From Patescibacteria group bacterium (GTDB lineage Bacteria; Patescibacteriota; Minisyncoccia; Phycocordibacterales; UBA9973), in the NCBI GenBank assembly GCA_038078255.1, contig JBBUEH010000013.1:1-41561 (forward strand): a DNA stretch of 41,561 nucleotides, read 5' to 3'. Shown piece by piece: positions 21,561 to 25,193 of this stretch. The notes beneath the pieces were generated by a model, which worked only from the letters and a program-made list of their open reading frames with translations, was not told the DNA's origin and made no database searches. Both the position numbers and the translations under genes were made by a program. Within the stretch, counting starts at the first letter, position 1. Each line of letters begins with the position of its first letter.

Positions 21561-22757
21561 ATGTGGTATCATTCGAGTATGAAAGTTGTTACAGATGAGA
21601 AAAAAATAGATGAAATTTTAACAAGGGGGGTAGAAGAGGTGATAGAGAAAGATCATCTAAAGAAAAAATTACTATCTGGTAAACAAGTCAGAGTTAAATT
21701 TGGGATTGACCCCACAATGCCCGACCTGCACTTGGGACATAGTGTGCCGTTACGAAAATTGCGTCAATTCCAAGATTTAGGGCACAAAGCCGTTCTTATT
21801 ATTGGTGATTACACTGCCATGATAGGTGATCCAACAGGTAGAACAGAAACTCGAAAAGTACTTACTGAAAAGGAAGTAAAAGTAAATATGAAAAAATATT
21901 TAAATCAAGCTGGAAAAATTCTAGACATAAAAAAAACAGAAGTAAGATACAATAGCGAATGGCTCGATAAGGGATTGGAAGTTATTCTTTCTTTAGCCCA
22001 GGCAGGCACTGTAAATCAGATGCTCAGACGGGCTGACTTTAGGCAAAGAATGGACAATGATTTAGATATAACTGTTTTAGAACTCATGTATCCTCTTATG
22101 CAGGGATATGATTCTGTGTCAGTGAAGGCGGATGTTGAGCTTGGTGGGACGGATCAGAAATTTAATCTATTAATGGGAAGAAAAGTGCAAAGACACTTCG
22201 ACCAACCAGAACAAGATGTGGTAACTTTTCCTTTACTGGAAGGCCTTGATGGAGTAAAAAAAATGAGTAAAAGTTTTGGGAACTATATTGCTTTAGATGA
22301 AAAACCAAAAGAAATGTTTGGGAAGATTATGTCTATACCGGACACTCTAATAAATAAATATATAAAATTATGCACGAATCTCTCTTTAGCAGAAATAGAT
22401 AATTCAAGAAAACAAAACCCTCGTGATCTCAAGATGAAACTTGCTCATGAAATTGTAAAAATTTGTCACGGGGAAGATGCCGCTCAAGAAGCCCAAGAGA
22501 ATTTCATTCACACTTTTCAGAAAAAAGAAATCCCCGAGACAATGCCGGAAATAAAATGCAAAATAGACGAGCTTCTAAGCGAGGTGTTGGTGAAAAATAA
22601 AATTCTATCTTCCAAGAGTGAATGGCGCAGGTTAGTGGGGGAGAAAGCGGTTCATGATTTAGTGAAGAATCAAAATATTCTAGAGGTCCATCTGAAAATT
22701 TCTACAGATTTGACTCTTCGAATAGGGAAAAAAAAGTTTGTCCGAATTCTAATTTAG
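21561..22757 (+). CDS. tyrS: Tyrosyl-tRNA synthetase
   Basis: HLGH and KMSKS class I motifs, C-terminal S4-like region. An alternative start at 21579 (MKVVTDE) is possible. Confidence 0.9.
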   Translation: MWYHSSMKVVTDEKKIDEILTRGVEEVIEKDHLKKKLLSGKQVRVKFGIDPTMPDLHLGHSVPLRKLRQFQDLGHKAVLIIGDYTAMIGDPTGRTETRKVLTEKEVKVNMKKYLNQAGKILDIKKTEVRYNSEWLDKGLEVILSLAQAGTVNQMLRRADFRQRMDNDLDITVLELMYPLMQGYDSVSVKADVELGGTDQKFNLLMGRKVQRHFDQPEQDVVTFPLLEGLDGVKKMSKSFGNYIALDEKPKEMFGKIMSIPDTLINKYIKLCTNLSLAEIDNSRKQNPRDLKMKLAHEIVKICHGEDAAQEAQENFIHTFQKKEIPETMPEIKCKIDELLSEVLVKNKILSSKSEWRRLVGEKAVHDLVKNQNILEVHLKISTDLTLRIGKKKFVRILI

Positions 22758-22867: not shown

Positions 22868-23002
22868 ATGAGTTATGATGAAGATGAAGTTGTAGATAGT
22901 GGTTTTAGAATAGGTGGCGATAGTGATGATGAATTAGAGATACCAGAGGGTATGCATGAAGACTTTGGACTCGACGAAGAAGATCCCGATAAAGATAGTT
23001 AG
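22868..23002 (+). CDS. Possible small, highly acidic protein (44 aa)
   Basis: Hand translation gives MSYDEDEVVDSGFRIGGDSDDELEIPEGMHEDFGLDEEDPDKDS. It fills an otherwise empty 260-nt gap. No homology claim. Confidence 0.35.
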   Translation: MSYDEDEVVDSGFRIGGDSDDELEIPEGMHEDFGLDEEDPDKDS

Positions 23003-23017
23003 AAAGATAGTTAAATT

Positions 23018-23539
23018 CTAAAATTTTAAATACGCAAAGGCAGTCAAGGCTGTGGCGATAGCGTCTAATTCGTCATCAGATTTTTTAAAACTATCAATAT
23101 CGACGAGTATTTTCACCATTTTATTTATCTGTGTTTTGTCCGCTCGACCGTAGCCCGTGGTGGCTACTTTTATTTGTAAGGGTGTTGCTTCAAAGATAGA
23201 AAGTCCCGCTTGTACTCCCTCATAAATCACCACTCCGCGCGCTTCTGCCACTCTCATAACTGTCTTCTGATTTGTATTTAAAAATAAAGTTTCTATTGCC
23301 AGTACTTCTGGTTTGTATTCTTTGATTACCCTCTTTACTTCTTCGCCGATTAGTTTCAACCGTTCGGAGAATTCCAATTTACTAGAAGTTTTAAAACATT
23401 CAGAAAAAATAACTTTCTCTTTTTTTTGTCCAGCATAGGAGTTTCCTATGATGTCATAGGAAACTCCTATGCTGGGTTTTTCTAACACTGCTATTCCCAG
23501 TCTTTCAAAACCTGGATCAATGCCTAGAATTTTTGTCAT
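23018..23539 (-). CDS. ruvC: Holliday junction resolvase RuvC
   Basis: 173 aa. ILGIDPG..LGIAVLE N-terminus, AIETLF, DELDAIATAL C-terminal catalytic region. Carries an insertion of about 15 aa encoded by a palindrome. Confidence 0.9.
   Translation of the reverse strand: MTKILGIDPGFERLGIAVLEKPSIGVSYDIIGNSYAGQKKEKVIFSECFKTSSKLEFSERLKLIGEEVKRVIKEYKPEVLAIETLFLNTNQKTVMRVAEARGVVIYEGVQAGLSIFEATPLQIKVATTGYGRADKTQINKMVKILVDIDSFKKSDDELDAIATALTAFAYLKF
23430..23475. repeat. 46-nt palindrome (22-bp perfect arms, 2-nt centre) in-frame inside ruvC
   Basis: ccagcataggagtttcctatga tg tcataggaaactcctatgctgg, pairs checked. Encodes ..PSIGVSYDIIGNSYAG.. between the first beta-strands of RuvC. Confidence 0.95.
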
Positions 23540-23567
23540 GATTTTATTTTACCATGATTTTATTTTA

Positions 23568-23672
23568 TCTCCTCCTTATGGAGGAGGAGTGCCCCCCGAC
23601 ATAGGTCGGGGGCGAAGTGGTGATTAAAGAATTACCACCCCCAACCCCTCCTTGATGAAGGAGGGGAGGAAT
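23568..23672 (-). repeat. Multi-hairpin repeat element, copy B (intergenic, inverted relative to copy A)
   Basis: Its reverse complement aligns with 13253-13344. Hairpins: ctcctcc-ttat-ggaggag, gcccccgac-atag-gtcgggggc, ggtggtg-N13-taccacc, cccctcc-N8-ggagggg. Confidence 0.8.
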
Positions 23673-23678
23673 GCAGGA

Positions 23679-23687
23679 TGTGGATAA
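23679..23687 (-). promoter_or_regulatory. Perfect DnaA box (TTATCCACA on minus strand)
   Basis: tgtggataa at 23679-23687. Confidence 0.5.
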
Positions 23688-23715
23688 CTCATTTGCATAG
23701 ATAGATAGATATATT

Positions 23716-23980
23716 CTTTAAAAAGAAGATACACCCCACAGATGATCGTGGGGGTGTCGTAGTACACAAGGAACAAACACCATGAGAACGTACATCAAGT
23801 ACACCAACGGCCCCGGCAACGACAACACCGGCGCCCCTGCTCAAGTCGAATCTGCCGTTATCGGCGTGACGGTAGGCAGTGTCAACGGGACTCCTGCGAA
23901 GCCTTTGCATATCGGCGGGTGATCGACGCTGGGGGACCACCACCCCGGCAAGAAAGAGGGCGCACCCGGACGGGGGCCCT
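23716..23980 (-). ncRNA. Candidate structured RNA of unknown class (GC-rich islet); alternative reading is a 46-aa ORF on the plus strand at 23782-23922
   Basis: GC is 119/180 (66%) over 23801-23980 against 41/120 (34%) over 24001-24120, by hand count. On the minus strand a TAGAAT -10 sits at 23982-23987. A terminator hairpin acacccccac-N8-gtggggtgt plus U-run sits at 23716-23757. Several GC hairpins are present. No RNase P, tmRNA or SRP signature was found by eye. Confidence 0.3.
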
Positions 23981-24149
23981 CATTCTAAACAGTTTGTTCT
24001 TTCTGTCTGAAGAAACTAGTGAGTTTAACTCACAAACCGATAGATGCAAATCTATCCAGTGTCATTTCTGAAAAATGATATATCTTTCTTGACCTCTTTG
24101 AATCTCTTTGATTCATCGAGGTTTTTGTCTTTTTAGAGTAATTTCTATA

Positions 24150-24176
24150 CTTCCGCTAGGAAAGACCTAGCGGAAG
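24150..24176 (-). terminator. Perfect 11-bp hairpin abutting the ruvB stop codon
   Basis: cttccgctagg aaaga cctagcggaag. No clear U-tract, so terminator function is uncertain. Confidence 0.4.
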
Positions 24177-25193
24177 CTAGAGCAATTTCTCTTGACCTTT
24201 TTTGAAGTCGAACCCCAAATGCTCGTACGCTTTCTTGGTTGCCACTCTGCCCCGGGCAGTGCGTTCTAGTAGCCCGAGTTGGATCAAATATGGCTCGATC
24301 ACTTCTTCTACTGTAGCTTCTTCTTCGGACATGGCGGCGCCGATTGTTTTTAATCCCACTGGCCCGCCGTGAAACTTTTCGATCAATATTTCTAGAAATT
24401 TTCTATCGGAAGAGTTGAGTCCAAGGTCGTCGATGGCCAGCATGTTGAGCGCATCTTTCACTGTTTTTTGATCTAGACTTTTTTTATGCACTTGTCCGAA
24501 GTCTCGAACTCTTTTCAAAAAATAATTTGCCGTCCGAGGAGTGAAACGGCTTCGTTTAGCGATTTCTTCTAGAGCTTTATTGTCTAATTTTGCTTTCAAA
24601 AGTTTGCTGGAGCGAGCTACTATTTCGGCGATTTCATTTTCTGAATAAAATTCTAAACGAAAAACTCCTCCAGAGAATCTTGAACGAAGGGGAGAGGAAA
24701 CAAGCGCAACTCGAGTCGTGGCCGCTATTAAAGTAAAGGGGGGTAAGTCGAGCTGGATAGTCCGAGCCGATGGACCCTTGCCGATGATGATGTCAAGAAC
24801 GCCAGATTCCATCGCTGGATAGAGAATTTCTTCCACCATTTTATTCAGTCGGTGAATTTCGTCGATAAAAAGAATATCACCGGGAGATAAGTTGGTCAGG
24901 ATAGACGCCAAGTCGCCCACCTTCTCAATAGCGGGGCCGGAAGTTATTTTCATCTGGCGGCCTGTTTCTTTGGCGATCAGATGGGCGAGGGTAGTTTTCC
25001 CTAGTCCTGGGGGTCCGTAAAAAAGAACATGTTCGGGAATGTGCCCTCTTTCCTCGGCGGCTTGAAGAAGGATGCGGATATTGTCTTTGATATGTTTCTG
25101 GCCAATATATTCATCCCAAGCCTGAGGACGCAAGGTTTGATCTAGGAAAGAGTCATCAGCCTTTTCAGTTTTCGGGGTTGACTTTTTATTCAT
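24177..25193 (-). CDS. ruvB: Holliday junction branch-migration ATPase RuvB
   Basis: 338 aa. Walker A GPPGLGKTT, Walker B FIDEIHRL, typical C-terminal winged helix. Confidence 0.95.
   Translation of the reverse strand: MNKKSTPKTEKADDSFLDQTLRPQAWDEYIGQKHIKDNIRILLQAAEERGHIPEHVLFYGPPGLGKTTLAHLIAKETGRQMKITSGPAIEKVGDLASILTNLSPGDILFIDEIHRLNKMVEEILYPAMESGVLDIIIGKGPSARTIQLDLPPFTLIAATTRVALVSSPLRSRFSGGVFRLEFYSENEIAEIVARSSKLLKAKLDNKALEEIAKRSRFTPRTANYFLKRVRDFGQVHKKSLDQKTVKDALNMLAIDDLGLNSSDRKFLEILIEKFHGGPVGLKTIGAAMSEEEATVEEVIEPYLIQLGLLERTARGRVATKKAYEHLGFDFKKGQEKLL

What the first reader, a model, noticed from the sequence alone, without database searches (positions are those of the whole stretch)
23716..23985. 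66% GC islet between ruvC and ruvB: an unclassified structured RNA or a foreign mini-gene
By hand count, 119 of 180 nt are G/C over 23801-23980, against 41 of 120 in the adjacent spacer. There are two competing readings.

(a) A minus-strand RNA of about 265 nt. A TAGAAT -10 lies at 23982-23987, with a TTCAGA-like -35 about 18 nt upstream. Several GC hairpins are present (gagggc..gccctc, gggg-uggugg u-cccc, ggcgccgg..ccggggcc). A clean terminator, acacccccac-N8-gtggggtgt, followed by a U-rich tract, lies at 23716-23757. I could not find RNase P (GAGGAAAGUCC), tmRNA (tRNA-like ends) or SRP (GGAA..AGCA helix 8) signatures.

(b) A plus-strand 46-codon ORF at 23782-23922, MRTYIKYTNGPGNDNTGAPAQVESAVIGVTVGSVNGTPAKPLHIGG. 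It has AAGGA 10 nt upstream and a third-position GC of 33/46, against about 53% at positions 1 and 2. That is the periodicity of a high-GC coding sequence and is completely unlike host codon usage.

Either reading is unusual for this genome.
Basis: partly seen in the sequence, partly recalled or inferred. Interest (0 to 1): 0.62.

Follow-up and report, generated by a model that had tools for sequence, protein, structure and literature searches.

The report
Switchable small gene beside ruvC
The GC-rich patch between the DNA-repair genes ruvB and ruvC of this ultra-small groundwater bacterium is most likely a tiny stand-alone gene for an orphan 46-residue peptide, read from the plus strand, and its promoter contains a short DNA repeat whose length differs between samples, so it may switch on and off.

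Summary
23801-23980 is 66% GC, the highest 180-nt value in a 38.6% GC window, and it is not an assembly error.

No Rfam family, tRNA or tmRNA matches. The peptide has no relatives among 1.84 billion proteins. Phage and plasmid collections hold no similar DNA.

About a quarter of related Nomurabacteria carry, in the same ruvB-ruvC gap and antisense to ruvB, a unit with these parts:
- a DnaA box fixed next to a -35 element;
- a promoter spacer that is often a simple repeat;
- a 5' leader helix with covariation and G-U pairs that fit only this strand;
- an ATG at a constant place;
- a fast-evolving ORF of 3 to about 50 codons with C-rich third positions;
- GC hairpins.

The window has the same parts on its plus strand and shares a 35-nt box/-35 block with locus L127. 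It does not match the main family's leader model.

Its spacer is (ATAG)3, 13 nt. One low-coverage contig of the same strain differs only by a fourth ATAG, giving 17 nt.

Reading (b), a plus-strand ORF, is favoured, but "foreign" is not. Reading (a), a minus-strand RNA, is not supported. Function is unknown and no RNA data exist.

The parts
23679..23687 (.). DnaA-box 9-mer. It reads TGTGGATAA on the plus strand and TTATCCACA on the minus strand, and ends 5 nt before the -35-like hexamer.
   Evidence: Sequence. It is part of a 35-nt block (23680-23714) that is 97% identical in L127, whose RuvC is only 68% identical. A box with at most 1 mismatch lies next to the -35 in 15 of 23 slot units, against a background of 0.5 per kb. 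The inverted box-N4/5-TTGYNT arrangement recurs in 14 loci. The window encodes DnaA with its C-terminal DNA-binding domain.
23693..23717 (+). Candidate promoter: -35-like TTGCAT (23693-23698), an (ATAG)3 repeat (23697-23708), and -10-like TATTCT (23712-23717). The spacer is only 13 nt.
   Evidence: Sequence. L127 has TTGCAT-(ATAG)4-17 nt-TAAATT, and L145 has TTGCAT-17 nt-TAATAT without a repeat. Contig L164 of the same strain has one extra ATAG and no other difference over 663 nt, which gives 17 nt. The simple scan finds no plus-strand promoter at 9 of 12 matches or better.
23728..23758 (+). 5' leader hairpin, GAUAC.ACCCCAC-N8-GUGGGGGUGUC. On the minus strand its core is a terminator-like hairpin followed by a U-run (23753-23716).
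   Evidence: Fold gives -19.0 kcal/mol, z = -2.8. The terminator scan flags it on the minus strand. The leader covariance model places its best local match here (23726-23787, plus strand), but at 11.6 bits and E = 2.7 it is not significant.
23768..23772 (+). Shine-Dalgarno-like AAGGA, 9 nt upstream of the ATG.
   Evidence: Sequence. Only 2 of 34 long ORFs in the window have any such motif, against 13 of 23 slot ORFs (Fisher p = 3e-5).
23782..23922 (+). 46-codon ORF plus TGA stop, encoding MRTYIKYTNGPGNDNTGAPAQVESAVIGVTVGSVNGTPAKPLHIGG.
   Evidence: ORF list. GC1/2/3 is 0.54/0.52/0.72, against a mean window-gene GC3 of 0.37 (maximum 0.46). Third positions: C 23, G 9, T 9, A 4 over the 45 codons after the ATG. 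Two-fold pyrimidine-ending codons are C-ending in 10 of 12 cases, against 0.15-0.54 in 34 genes. The only real match in 1.84 billion proteins is the peptide itself. No Pfam family matches. AlphaFold2 on the single sequence gives pLDDT 54.7 and no secondary structure.
23928..23986 (+). Two GC-rich hairpins just after the stop codon, at 23928-23949 and 23951-23986.
   Evidence: The plus strand folds at -36.0 kcal/mol (z = -4.1, 0 of 200 shuffles as good). The minus strand gives -30.4 (z = -1.5). A GC hairpin after the stop codon is a constant feature of the units in relatives.
24091..24135 (+). Terminator-like hairpin (24091-24123) followed by UUUUUGUCUUUUU, on the plus strand only. It lies 42 nt before the 3' end of ruvB.
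   Evidence: Fold gives -15.7 kcal/mol, z = -3.4. The U-run follows the stem only on the plus strand.
23982..24011 (-).
   Evidence: Found by the scan at 9 of 12 matches, but the count of such sites in the region is at chance level. A transcript from it would start inside the GC hairpin.

Best explanation
The islet is the body of a small, independently transcribed plus-strand unit in the variable gap between ruvB and ruvC. The unit converges on ruvB.

Its parts, in order:
1. a DnaA box touching a -35-like TTGCAT;
2. a promoter spacer made of an (ATAG)n repeat;
3. a leader of about 55 nt that begins with a stable hairpin;
4. an SD-like AAGGA;
5. a 46-codon ORF with C-rich third codon positions;
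6. two GC hairpins;
7. about 100 nt further on, a hairpin with a U-run just before the ruvB stop codon.

Shown: the GC richness comes partly from the hairpins and partly from the ORF's third codon positions. Inferred: the product is a short, fast-evolving orphan peptide, and its mRNA hairpins may also act at the RNA level.

Shown: units with the same parts list occupy the same slot in many Nomurabacteria.

Inferred: expression is set by the promoter spacing. The window's allele, (ATAG)3 with 13 nt, is predicted to be poorly active. A (ATAG)4 variant with 17 nt, seen once in the same strain, matches the spacing in relatives. The unit would therefore work like a repeat-controlled, phase-variable gene, possibly under DnaA control.

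What the peptide does is not known.
For: Strand and structure in the window:
- The plus strand folds better than shuffles (z = -3.14) and the minus strand does not (z = -1.26).
- The 3' hairpins and a hairpin with a U-run favour the plus strand.

Coding signal:
- Window ORF GC3 is 0.72, against 0.37 (maximum 0.46) for 34 genes.
- C-ending two-fold codons are 10 of 12, against 0.15-0.54.
- In 21 of 23 slot ORFs, GC3 is the highest of the three positions (binomial p = 1e-8). Pooled third positions are C 509, G 246, T 121, A 77.
- SD-like motifs occur in 13 of 23 slot ORFs, against 2 of 34 ordinary genes, many of which have a -10-like box just before the start codon and look leaderless.
- Gly-Ala-His is kept with synonymous changes in four relatives (GGC GCC CAT, GGC GCT CAC). 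N-terminal similarity is seen in pairs of peptides.

Family:
- 21 loci share a promoter and leader found only in this spacer and only antisense to ruvB.
- The leader helix is 81% paired, against 42-58% when the partner strand is slid. It shows U-A to C-G covariation and many U-G pairs that would be A-C mismatches on the other strand.
- A DnaA box sits at a fixed distance from the -35.

Link to the window:
- Same slot, strand and order of parts.
- A 35-nt box/-35 block shared with L127. The same box/-35 with 17-nt spacing occurs in L127 and L145.

Repeat variation:
- L164 differs from the window by one ATAG unit and nothing else.
- The L090 allele has (TA)7, against (TA)6 in a contig of another run.
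- Promoters with a (TA)n repeat have 14, 16, 18 or 20-nt spacers. Eight of nine promoters without a repeat have 16-17 nt.
Against: - No RNA-seq run holds the stretch, so transcription, strand and ends are all inferred.
- The window has no plus-strand promoter by the consensus scan. Even the 17-nt variant matches only 7 of 12 consensus positions.
- The (ATAG)4 variant rests on one contig of 1.7x coverage. Twelve Logan runs and three other contigs all show (ATAG)3. Three or four repeat units is short for fast slippage.
- The window does not match the family's promoter/leader HMM (E = 5.9) or the leader-helix covariance model (11.6 bits, E = 2.7).
- The peptide is similar to no other slot peptide.
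- Periodicity in the window ORF alone is weak (Fisher p = 0.04). An ORF of 46 codons is expected by chance in 65% GC sequence.
- Several relatives have only 3-9 codons (MNHK in L127, MHRYLA in L013), which argues that the peptide is not always the functional product.
- I picked the relatives' ORFs by their position after the leader, so some selection bias is possible.
- The closest relative, L038, has no such unit.
Confidence: 0.6

Rival explanations
1. The unit is a plus-strand regulatory or structural RNA. The short ORF matters only because it is translated, as with a leader peptide or ribosome loading, or it is incidental. The GC-rich hairpins are the functional part. For example, the RNA could control read-through antisense transcription into ruvB, or it could act in trans.
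For: - ORF length in the slot ranges from 3 to about 54 codons, and peptide sequences are not alignable, while the promoter, leader helix, start codon and GC hairpins persist.
- In L010 most of the GC-rich stretch is leader and 3' hairpin rather than ORF.
- The window's plus-strand fold is better than shuffles.
- The unit converges on ruvB, and no sense gene lies downstream.
Against: - Strong three-base periodicity with C-rich third positions in 21 of 23 ORFs.
- Synonymous variation over conserved Gly-Ala-His.
- SD enrichment.
- Some slot genes encode 110-163-residue exported proteins.
- No covariation can be tested in the core, because the cores do not align.
Confidence: 0.2
2. The window's copy is a silent or decaying allele of the slot gene. 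The promoter has lost correct spacing, the ORF is an orphan, and the GC-rich DNA has no present function.
For: - A 13-nt spacer and no consensus plus-strand promoter.
- GC3 of 0.72 is lower than the 0.9 or more of some relatives.
- No match to the family leader models.
- The closest relative, L038, lacks the unit, and 30 of 122 loci have ruvB and ruvC almost abutting, so the unit is dispensable.
Against: - The 35-nt box/-35 block is 97% identical to L127 although RuvC is only 68% identical, which points to constraint.
- The ORF, SD and hairpins are intact.
- The sequence is identical across samples from several wells and studies.
- A 17-nt variant exists.
Confidence: 0.12
3. The functional product is a minus-strand RNA. 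It is either the first reader's sRNA of about 265 nt or a long structured 3' UTR of ruvB that ends at the terminator 23753-23716.
For: - Two minus-strand promoter-like sites and a canonical hairpin with a U-run at 23753-23716. This is the first such terminator downstream of ruvB.
Against: - The promoter matches are at chance level, and one would start transcription inside a hairpin.
- The minus-strand fold is not better than shuffles.
- No Rfam match.
- In relatives the conserved signals and the G-U-rich helix fit only the opposite strand.
- The ruvB-sense terminator is not conserved in relatives.
Confidence: 0.05
4. The islet is recently imported foreign DNA from a GC-rich donor, or an assembly chimera.
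For: Composition and codon use unlike the host. Absent from the closest relative, L038.
Against: - Contiguous in independent assemblies from several studies.
- No homologue in 1.84 billion proteins, 50,697 phage records or 72,556 plasmid records.
- The same slot carries GC-rich units with conserved AT-rich native promoters in many species.
Confidence: 0.03

Closest known systems
Phase-variable promoters with a simple repeat between -35 and -10, such as Haemophilus influenzae hifA/hifB (TA)9-11 (PMC2651432). From my own knowledge, the poly(A) tracts of Mycoplasma vlp promoters and the porA/opc promoters of Neisseria are further examples.
   Same: - A short tandem repeat fills the promoter spacer.
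- Spacer length changes in whole repeat units between species: 14, 16, 18 and 20 nt.
- In two cases it changes within one strain's population, +ATAG in the window strain and -TA in L090.
- The 16-17 nt state matches promoters without a repeat.
   Different: - No expression data exist.
- The tracts are short: 3-4 ATAG units or 4-8 TA units.
- The gene controlled is a tiny orphan ORF rather than a known surface structure.
- A DnaA box is attached to the -35.
- The organism is a free-living-community CPR bacterium, not a host-adapted pathogen.
Phage 'morons' and single-gene orphan islets, meaning autonomous promoter-ORF-terminator units of deviant composition (from my own knowledge).
   Same: A self-contained unit with its own promoter, ribosome-binding site, ORF and hairpins. 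It sits between housekeeping genes, its composition is unlike the host's, and it is absent from some close relatives.
   Different: - No phage or plasmid relatives.
- The unit sits in one orthologous slot with a vertically conserved promoter and leader.
- GC richness persists across species.
Bacillus subtilis sda, a small checkpoint protein whose promoter is controlled through DnaA boxes (from my own knowledge; not tested here).
   Same: A consensus DnaA box is coupled to the promoter of a very small ORF, 46 codons here, near DNA-replication and repair genes.
   Different: - No sequence similarity was detected or expected.
- There is a single box rather than a cluster.
- DnaA binding is untested.
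- The peptide is not conserved between species.
Dual-function small RNAs that also encode a peptide, such as RNAIII/hld and SR1/SR1P (from my own knowledge).
   Same: A short, highly structured transcript that carries a small ORF. The conserved RNA helices flank a poorly conserved coding part.
   Different: No target, no trans-acting seed and no expression data are known. No Rfam family matches.
Type I toxin-antitoxin loci, such as the tisB/istR-1 and hok/sok types (from my own knowledge).
   Same: A small ORF with a structured 5' leader and stable hairpins, near DNA-repair genes, with possible overlapping antisense transcription.
   Different: The window peptide has no membrane-spanning hydrophobic stretch. 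No convincing antisense promoter is present. Only a few relatives (L026, L034) encode hydrophobic peptides.

Membership tests
Any described RNA family (Rfam 15: RNase P, SRP, 6S, tmRNA, riboswitches and others) | Covariance-model score at or above the family's gathering threshold | tested here: not met
   The only hits in the window at gathering score are two tRNAs elsewhere. Over 23400-24300 on both strands at E <= 10, nothing overlaps the GC core 23782-23986. No hits in 16 related loci that carry islets.
tmRNA | tRNA-like domain plus a tag reading frame, as detected by ARAGORN | tested here: not met
   ARAGORN finds only tRNA-Lys and tRNA-Arg in the window.
Nomurabacteria ruvB-ruvC slot unit (defined here) | Lies between ruvB (or yebC) and ruvC, on the strand antisense to them | tested here: met
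   The window ORF is on the plus strand, and ruvB and ruvC are on the minus strand. Of 122 distinct related loci, 18 carry the forward-box unit and 14 the inverted-box unit.
Nomurabacteria ruvB-ruvC slot unit (defined here) | DnaA box (TTATCCACA) at a fixed distance from the -35 hexamer | tested here: met
   The window has a perfect box ending 5 nt before TTGCAT, in the inverted orientation shared with L127, L145, L011, L013, L034 and others. The main family has the box in the forward orientation at -16/-17.
Nomurabacteria ruvB-ruvC slot unit (defined here) | Match to the promoter/leader profile (TTGACA-(TA)n-TATCAT, CAGYTCTTTG box) | tested here: not met
   The best nhmmer match in the whole window falls at the expected place (23696-23723, plus strand), but at 2.2 bits and E = 5.9.
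Nomurabacteria ruvB-ruvC slot unit (defined here) | Leader helix (5' box paired with GAGGAACUG, enclosing a hairpin) before the start codon | tested here: inconclusive
   Covariance model R1 places 23726-23787 (plus strand) eighth in the window, at 11.6 bits and E = 2.7. The window has a simple 5' hairpin instead.
Nomurabacteria ruvB-ruvC slot unit (defined here) | ATG about 85-125 nt after the box, an ORF with GC3 above GC1 and GC2, and a GC hairpin after the stop codon | tested here: met
   The box-to-ATG distance is 99 nt, against 85-124 nt in six relatives. GC is 0.54/0.52/0.72. Hairpins lie at 23928-23986.
Repeat-spaced phase-variable promoter (hifA/hifB type) | A simple sequence repeat between the -35 and -10 elements | tested here: met
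   (ATAG)3 lies at 23697-23708, between TTGCAT and TATTCT. Ten relatives have (TA)4-8 in the same position. The promoter elements themselves are predicted, not mapped.
Repeat-spaced phase-variable promoter (hifA/hifB type) | Repeat-number polymorphism within one strain's population | tested here: inconclusive
   L164 (1.7x coverage) has (ATAG)4 and is otherwise identical over 663 nt. All other contigs have (ATAG)3. For L090, (TA)7 compares with (TA)6 in one contig of depth 2.1. No raw reads were available.
Repeat-spaced phase-variable promoter (hifA/hifB type) | On/off expression that follows repeat number and switches reversibly | not testable with these tools
   No RNA run holds the stretch, and the organism is uncultured.
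DnaA-regulated promoter | DnaA binds the box and changes transcription | not testable with these tools
   Only the consensus box, its fixed position and a dnaA gene with its DNA-binding domain are shown.
Type I toxin-antitoxin | A small hydrophobic membrane peptide plus an overlapping antisense RNA with its own promoter | tested here: not met
   The peptide sequence has no hydrophobic stretch long enough to span a membrane. The minus-strand promoter-like sites are at chance level.
RiPP precursor peptide | Neighbouring modification, protease or export genes, and a conserved leader with a variable core | tested here: not met
   The neighbours are PBP1, TyrRS, RuvC, RuvB and a PilB-type ATPase. 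Only the first few residues (MK..H) recur in relatives.
Recently transferred foreign islet or phage moron | Detectable relatives in a donor lineage, phage or plasmid | tested here: not met
   HMMER against 1.84 billion proteins finds the peptide itself plus one chance match to a repeat protein. blastn finds nothing in phages or plasmids.

The most novel reading that the evidence does not exclude
The ruvB-ruvC slot unit may be a contingency locus of CPR bacteria. Three observed features would define it:
- a promoter whose -35/-10 spacing is set by a slippage-prone repeat, (TA)n or (ATAG)n;
- a DnaA box fused to that promoter;
- a hypervariable micro-ORF whose third codon positions are held C-rich, in genomes whose other genes look AT-rich and leaderless.

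If real, this would be the first phase-variable gene described in Patescibacteria. It would link a stochastic on/off switch to replication status through DnaA. Because the unit converges on ruvB, it might also affect Holliday-junction resolution genes through antisense transcription.
Probability: 0.22. Interest if true: 0.75.

Novelty: new variant of a known kind. Interest (0 to 1): 0.55.

Why it matters
Ultra-small CPR bacteria are thought to live attached to other cells, yet almost nothing is known about how they vary or regulate their few accessory genes.

This locus shows a small gene with a distinctive set of features, repeated across many species at one chromosomal slot:
- its own classical -35/-10 promoter, in a genome whose genes mostly look leaderless;
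- a DnaA box welded to that promoter;
- a simple repeat in the promoter spacer that differs in length between samples;
- a leader helix with covariation;
- an ORF that changes almost completely between species while keeping C-rich third codon positions.

If the repeat does switch the gene, CPR bacteria use the same bet-hedging device as host-adapted pathogens and mycoplasmas. Hundreds of similar GC-rich small-gene islets in these genomes would then deserve the same look.

If it does not, the finding is still a clean example of an unannotated orphan small gene that could easily be mistaken for a structured RNA.

Tried and rejected
- Known RNA families: Rfam at gathering score on the whole window, and at E <= 10 on 23400-24300, gave nothing on the islet. 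ARAGORN found no tmRNA.
- Homologues of the core: blastn, tblastn and tblastx against 160 related loci gave only chance-level hits. The repeated tblastx hits to the antisense of ruvB use a query frame with stop codons and vanish against the window's own ruvB. No phage or plasmid DNA match.
- Peptide search: HMMER against 1.84 billion proteins found only the peptide itself and a 12-repeat cadherin-like protein that matches ITITVGDVN by chance. No Pfam hit for the window peptide or nine slot peptides.
- DGR template/variable repeat: rejected. No second copy at 80-85% identity in any run.
- Covariation in the GC core: impossible, because the cores of different species do not align.
- Population variation in the ORF: all contigs are from the same strain at 99.4-100% identity.
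- RNA-seq: no run available.
- TGA read-through: TGA is a normal stop in 3 of 34 genes.
- AlphaFold2 on the single peptide: pLDDT 54.7, uninformative.
- Leader covariance model on the window: not significant.
- Repeat variation in L029: the 2-nt difference found lies in a T-run elsewhere, not in the promoter repeat.
I therefore could not scan the rest of the genome for other such units, for a 16S anti-SD sequence, or for second copies.
Full report
**Observation**

23801-23980 holds 119 G/C in 180 nt (0.661). The best 180-nt window, 23802-23981 at 0.667, is the highest in the 41,561-nt window (mean 0.386, sd 0.055). GC drops to 0.29-0.40 on both sides.

The ORF 23782-23922, its peptide, the AAGGA 9 nt upstream, the minus-strand TTCAGA-N18-TAGAAT and the hairpin with a U-run at 23753-23716 are all present. 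Third-position GC is 33 of 46, against 0.54 and 0.52 at positions 1 and 2.

The islet is not a chimera. Logan contigs from runs of at least three studies cross it and both flanks without a difference, for example a 2,648-nt and a 3,746-nt contig. ENA and Logan contigs from other Hainich groundwater samples match at 99.4-100%.

**Context**

All the neighbouring genes named here except tyrS are on the minus strand: a PilB-type ATPase, ruvB (25193-24177), a 637-nt gap, ruvC (23539-23018) and PBP1; tyrS (21561-22757) is on the plus strand. dnaA lies 6 kb away. Relatives found with RuvB and RuvC are Nomurabacteria/Paceibacteria, which belong to the Candidate Phyla Radiation (CPR).

Ordinary genes of the window have a mean GC3 of 0.37 (maximum 0.46). 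Only 2 of 34 have an SD-like motif. Many have a TATAAT-like box a few nucleotides before the start codon (within the 15 nt examined), so they look leaderless.

**What it is not**

- No Rfam family matches the islet on either strand, even at E <= 10. There is no tmRNA.
- The peptide has no relative among 1.84 billion representative proteins. It finds only itself and a chance match to a 12-fold repeat protein. It has no Pfam family.
- The DNA has no match in phage or plasmid collections.
- blastn, tblastn and tblastx against 160 related loci give nothing above chance.

**The slot in relatives**

ruvB followed by ruvC is conserved, but the gap ranges from 3 nt to 3.3 kb. Among 122 distinct loci:
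- 30 have the two genes almost abutting;
- 44 have yebC between them;
- 24 have a GC peak at least 0.2 above the locus mean.

The GC cores of different species do not align with each other, but their flanks do.

An iterated nhmmer profile finds a promoter and leader in 21 loci. It occurs once per locus, only in this gap and only antisense to ruvB. Its parts are:
- TTATCCACA starting 16-17 nt before the -35. With the inverted-box units (the window and L127) included, 15 of 23 units have the box with at most one mismatch, against a background of 0.5 per kb.
- TTGACA.
- A spacer that is often (TA)n.
- TATCAT.
- A box CAGYTCTTTG that pairs with GAGGAACUG about 45 nt downstream.
- An ATG, usually followed by AAR, at a constant place.

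The helix is 81% paired, against 42-58% when the 3' strand is slid. Six pairs change on both sides, for example C-G in 5 sequences, U-A in 4 and U-G in 2 at one pair. Three pairs are mostly U-G, which would be A-C on the other strand. The structured RNA is therefore the one read antisense to ruvB.

**Coding signal in the slot**

- The ORFs that follow range from 3 to 54 codons. Three loci carry 110-163-residue proteins with a signal-like N-terminus.
- In 21 of 23, GC3 is the highest position (binomial p = 1e-8; median excess 0.34). Pooled third positions are C 509, G 246, T 121, A 77.
- SD-like motifs precede 13 of 23, against 2 of 34 ordinary genes (p = 3e-5).
- Four relatives keep Gly-Ala-His with synonymous changes. 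Pairs share N-termini such as MKTHTGAH/MKPHIGAH and MKPNWHI..NTANGH/MKTKRHI..NTATGH.

So the longer ORFs behave as coding sequence. The 3-9-codon versions (L127 MNHK, L013 MHRYLA, L086, L118) show that a long peptide is not always kept.

**The window's unit**

On the plus strand the same parts occur in the same order:
1. TGTGGATAA (23679-23687).
2. TTGCAT (23693-23698).
3. (ATAG)3 (23697-23708).
4. TATTCT (23712-23717).
5. A 5' hairpin at 23728-23758 (-19 kcal/mol, z = -2.8).
6. AAGGA.
7. The ORF.
8. Two GC hairpins at 23928-23986. The plus strand gives -36.0 kcal/mol (z = -4.1), against -30.4 (z = -1.5) on the minus strand.
9. A hairpin with UUUUUGUCUUUUU at 24091-24135, which reads as a terminator only on the plus strand.

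The whole 296-nt stretch folds better than shuffles on the plus strand (z = -3.14) and not on the minus strand (z = -1.26).

The block 23680-23714 is 97% identical to L127, whose RuvC is 68% identical. L127 and L145 have the same inverted box and TTGCAT with a 17-nt spacer. A leader helix (by eye, in L127), an SD and an ATG follow. Fourteen loci show this inverted-box arrangement. One of them, L137, also carries the main family's leader box.

The window does not reach significance with the main family's HMM (E = 5.9) or leader covariance model (E = 2.7), although both place their local best at the expected spot. I therefore call it a positional and architectural relative of the inverted-box subtype, not a proven member of the main family.

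**The promoter repeat**

The window's spacer is 13 nt, which is too short for a sigma-70-type promoter. The consensus scan finds no plus-strand promoter.

Contig L164 (Hainich well H51, 1.7x coverage) is identical to the window over 663 nt except for one extra ATAG. That restores the 17 nt seen in L127 and L145. Twelve Logan runs and three other contigs have (ATAG)3.

In the main family, promoters with (TA)n have spacers of 14, 16, 18 or 20 nt. Eight of nine promoters without a repeat have 16-17 nt. The deposited L090 has (TA)7, and a contig from another run has (TA)6 with no other difference.

This is the layout of repeat-spaced phase-variable promoters such as hifA/hifB of Haemophilus influenzae (PMC2651432). 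I found no paper on phase variation in CPR bacteria. The evidence is suggestive only: two single low-depth contigs, short tracts and no expression data.

**Mechanism proposed**

Shown:
- the composition and the ORF;
- hairpins that favour the plus strand;
- the conserved slot architecture;
- the box-promoter coupling;
- repeat-length differences.

Inferred:
- A plus-strand transcript runs from about 23725 to 23986 or 24135.
- The 46-residue peptide is translated.
- The 13-nt allele is weakly expressed and the 17-nt allele is active.
- DnaA modulates the promoter.
- The minus-strand hairpin with a U-run at 23753-23716 may simply terminate ruvB read-through.

Why third positions stay C-rich in an AT-rich genome is unexplained. 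Translational selection in a strongly expressed gene, or selection for a stable mRNA, are possibilities that I could not test.

**Earlier notes of this scan**

Earlier notes describe similar GC-rich, SD-led small genes in other Nomurabacteria. I used them as leads only. The SD scarcity, the GC3 excess and the DnaA-box position were measured here.

**Limits**

- No RNA-seq exists for this stretch.
- AlphaFold2 on the single peptide was uninformative.
- I picked the relatives' ORFs by their position after the leader, which may bias the periodicity count slightly.

Noticed in passing
window, whole (34 ORFs of 150 aa or more): Most genes have a TATAAT-like box a few nucleotides before the start codon, within the 15 nt examined (for example TCTGATATAATCTAG-ATG and GTGCTATAATAAAGA-ATG). 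Only 2 of 34 have an SD-like motif, so the genome appears to rely largely on leaderless mRNAs.
   Followed up: partly
window 23540-23562 and the equivalent site in L010, L011, L013, L021, L030, L038, L080: ruvC has a conserved extended -10 (TGnTAAAAT) about 5-10 nt before its ATG. ruvC therefore has its own promoter and need not depend on transcription through the gap.
   Followed up: partly
window 23568-23672: A multi-hairpin GC-rich repeat next to the islet recurs in the same gap of L033, L010, L046, L083 and L127 at 78-86% identity, in either orientation.
   Followed up: partly
window 23430-23475: A perfect 46-nt palindrome lies in frame inside ruvC. The closest relative, L038, has a similar extra segment in RuvC (EKPSIGVSYDSIGNSYAK).
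   Followed up: no
L001, L026, L033, L034, L043, L067, L127 and about 40 other loci: A 180-residue YebC/TACO1-family gene sits between ruvB and ruvC in 44 of 122 relatives but is missing from the window's gap. The small unit can lie on either side of it.
   Followed up: partly
L033/L082/L084/L085 and L091, ruvB-ruvC gap, antisense strand: Here the slot carries 110-163-residue proteins with a signal-like N-terminus and GC3 of 0.87-0.88, with no Pfam match. L082 differs from L033 by an in-frame 39-nt insertion.
   Followed up: partly
L011/L115, gap positions about 130-195: Seven tandem copies of a 9-nt unit (GAGATCCTG) lie inside the slot ORF and are read as (RIS)n.
   Followed up: no
L029 4657-4662: All four public runs that hold this locus have two fewer T in a T-run than the deposited genome. 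This suggests an assembly error or a frameshift polymorphism in the 284-codon reading frame there.
   Followed up: no
L081 1096-1200 (minus strand), downstream of ruvC: A second leader-like helix (ACACAGCUUUUC ... GAAAAGCUGUGU) is followed by ATGAAG, at E = 0.16 with the leader model. Another small-ORF unit may lie outside the ruvB-ruvC gap.
   Followed up: no
window 22868-23002 (plus strand): A 44-codon, very acidic ORF (MSYDEDEVVDSGF...DPDKDS) lies between tyrS and the 3' end of ruvC. It is called as a gene in an ENA contig and has no Pfam match.
   Followed up: no
window 24075-24102 (minus strand): TTCAAA-N16-TATCAT uses the same -10 hexamer as the relatives' slot promoter, but on the opposite strand, between the plus-strand terminator and the islet.
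   Followed up: no
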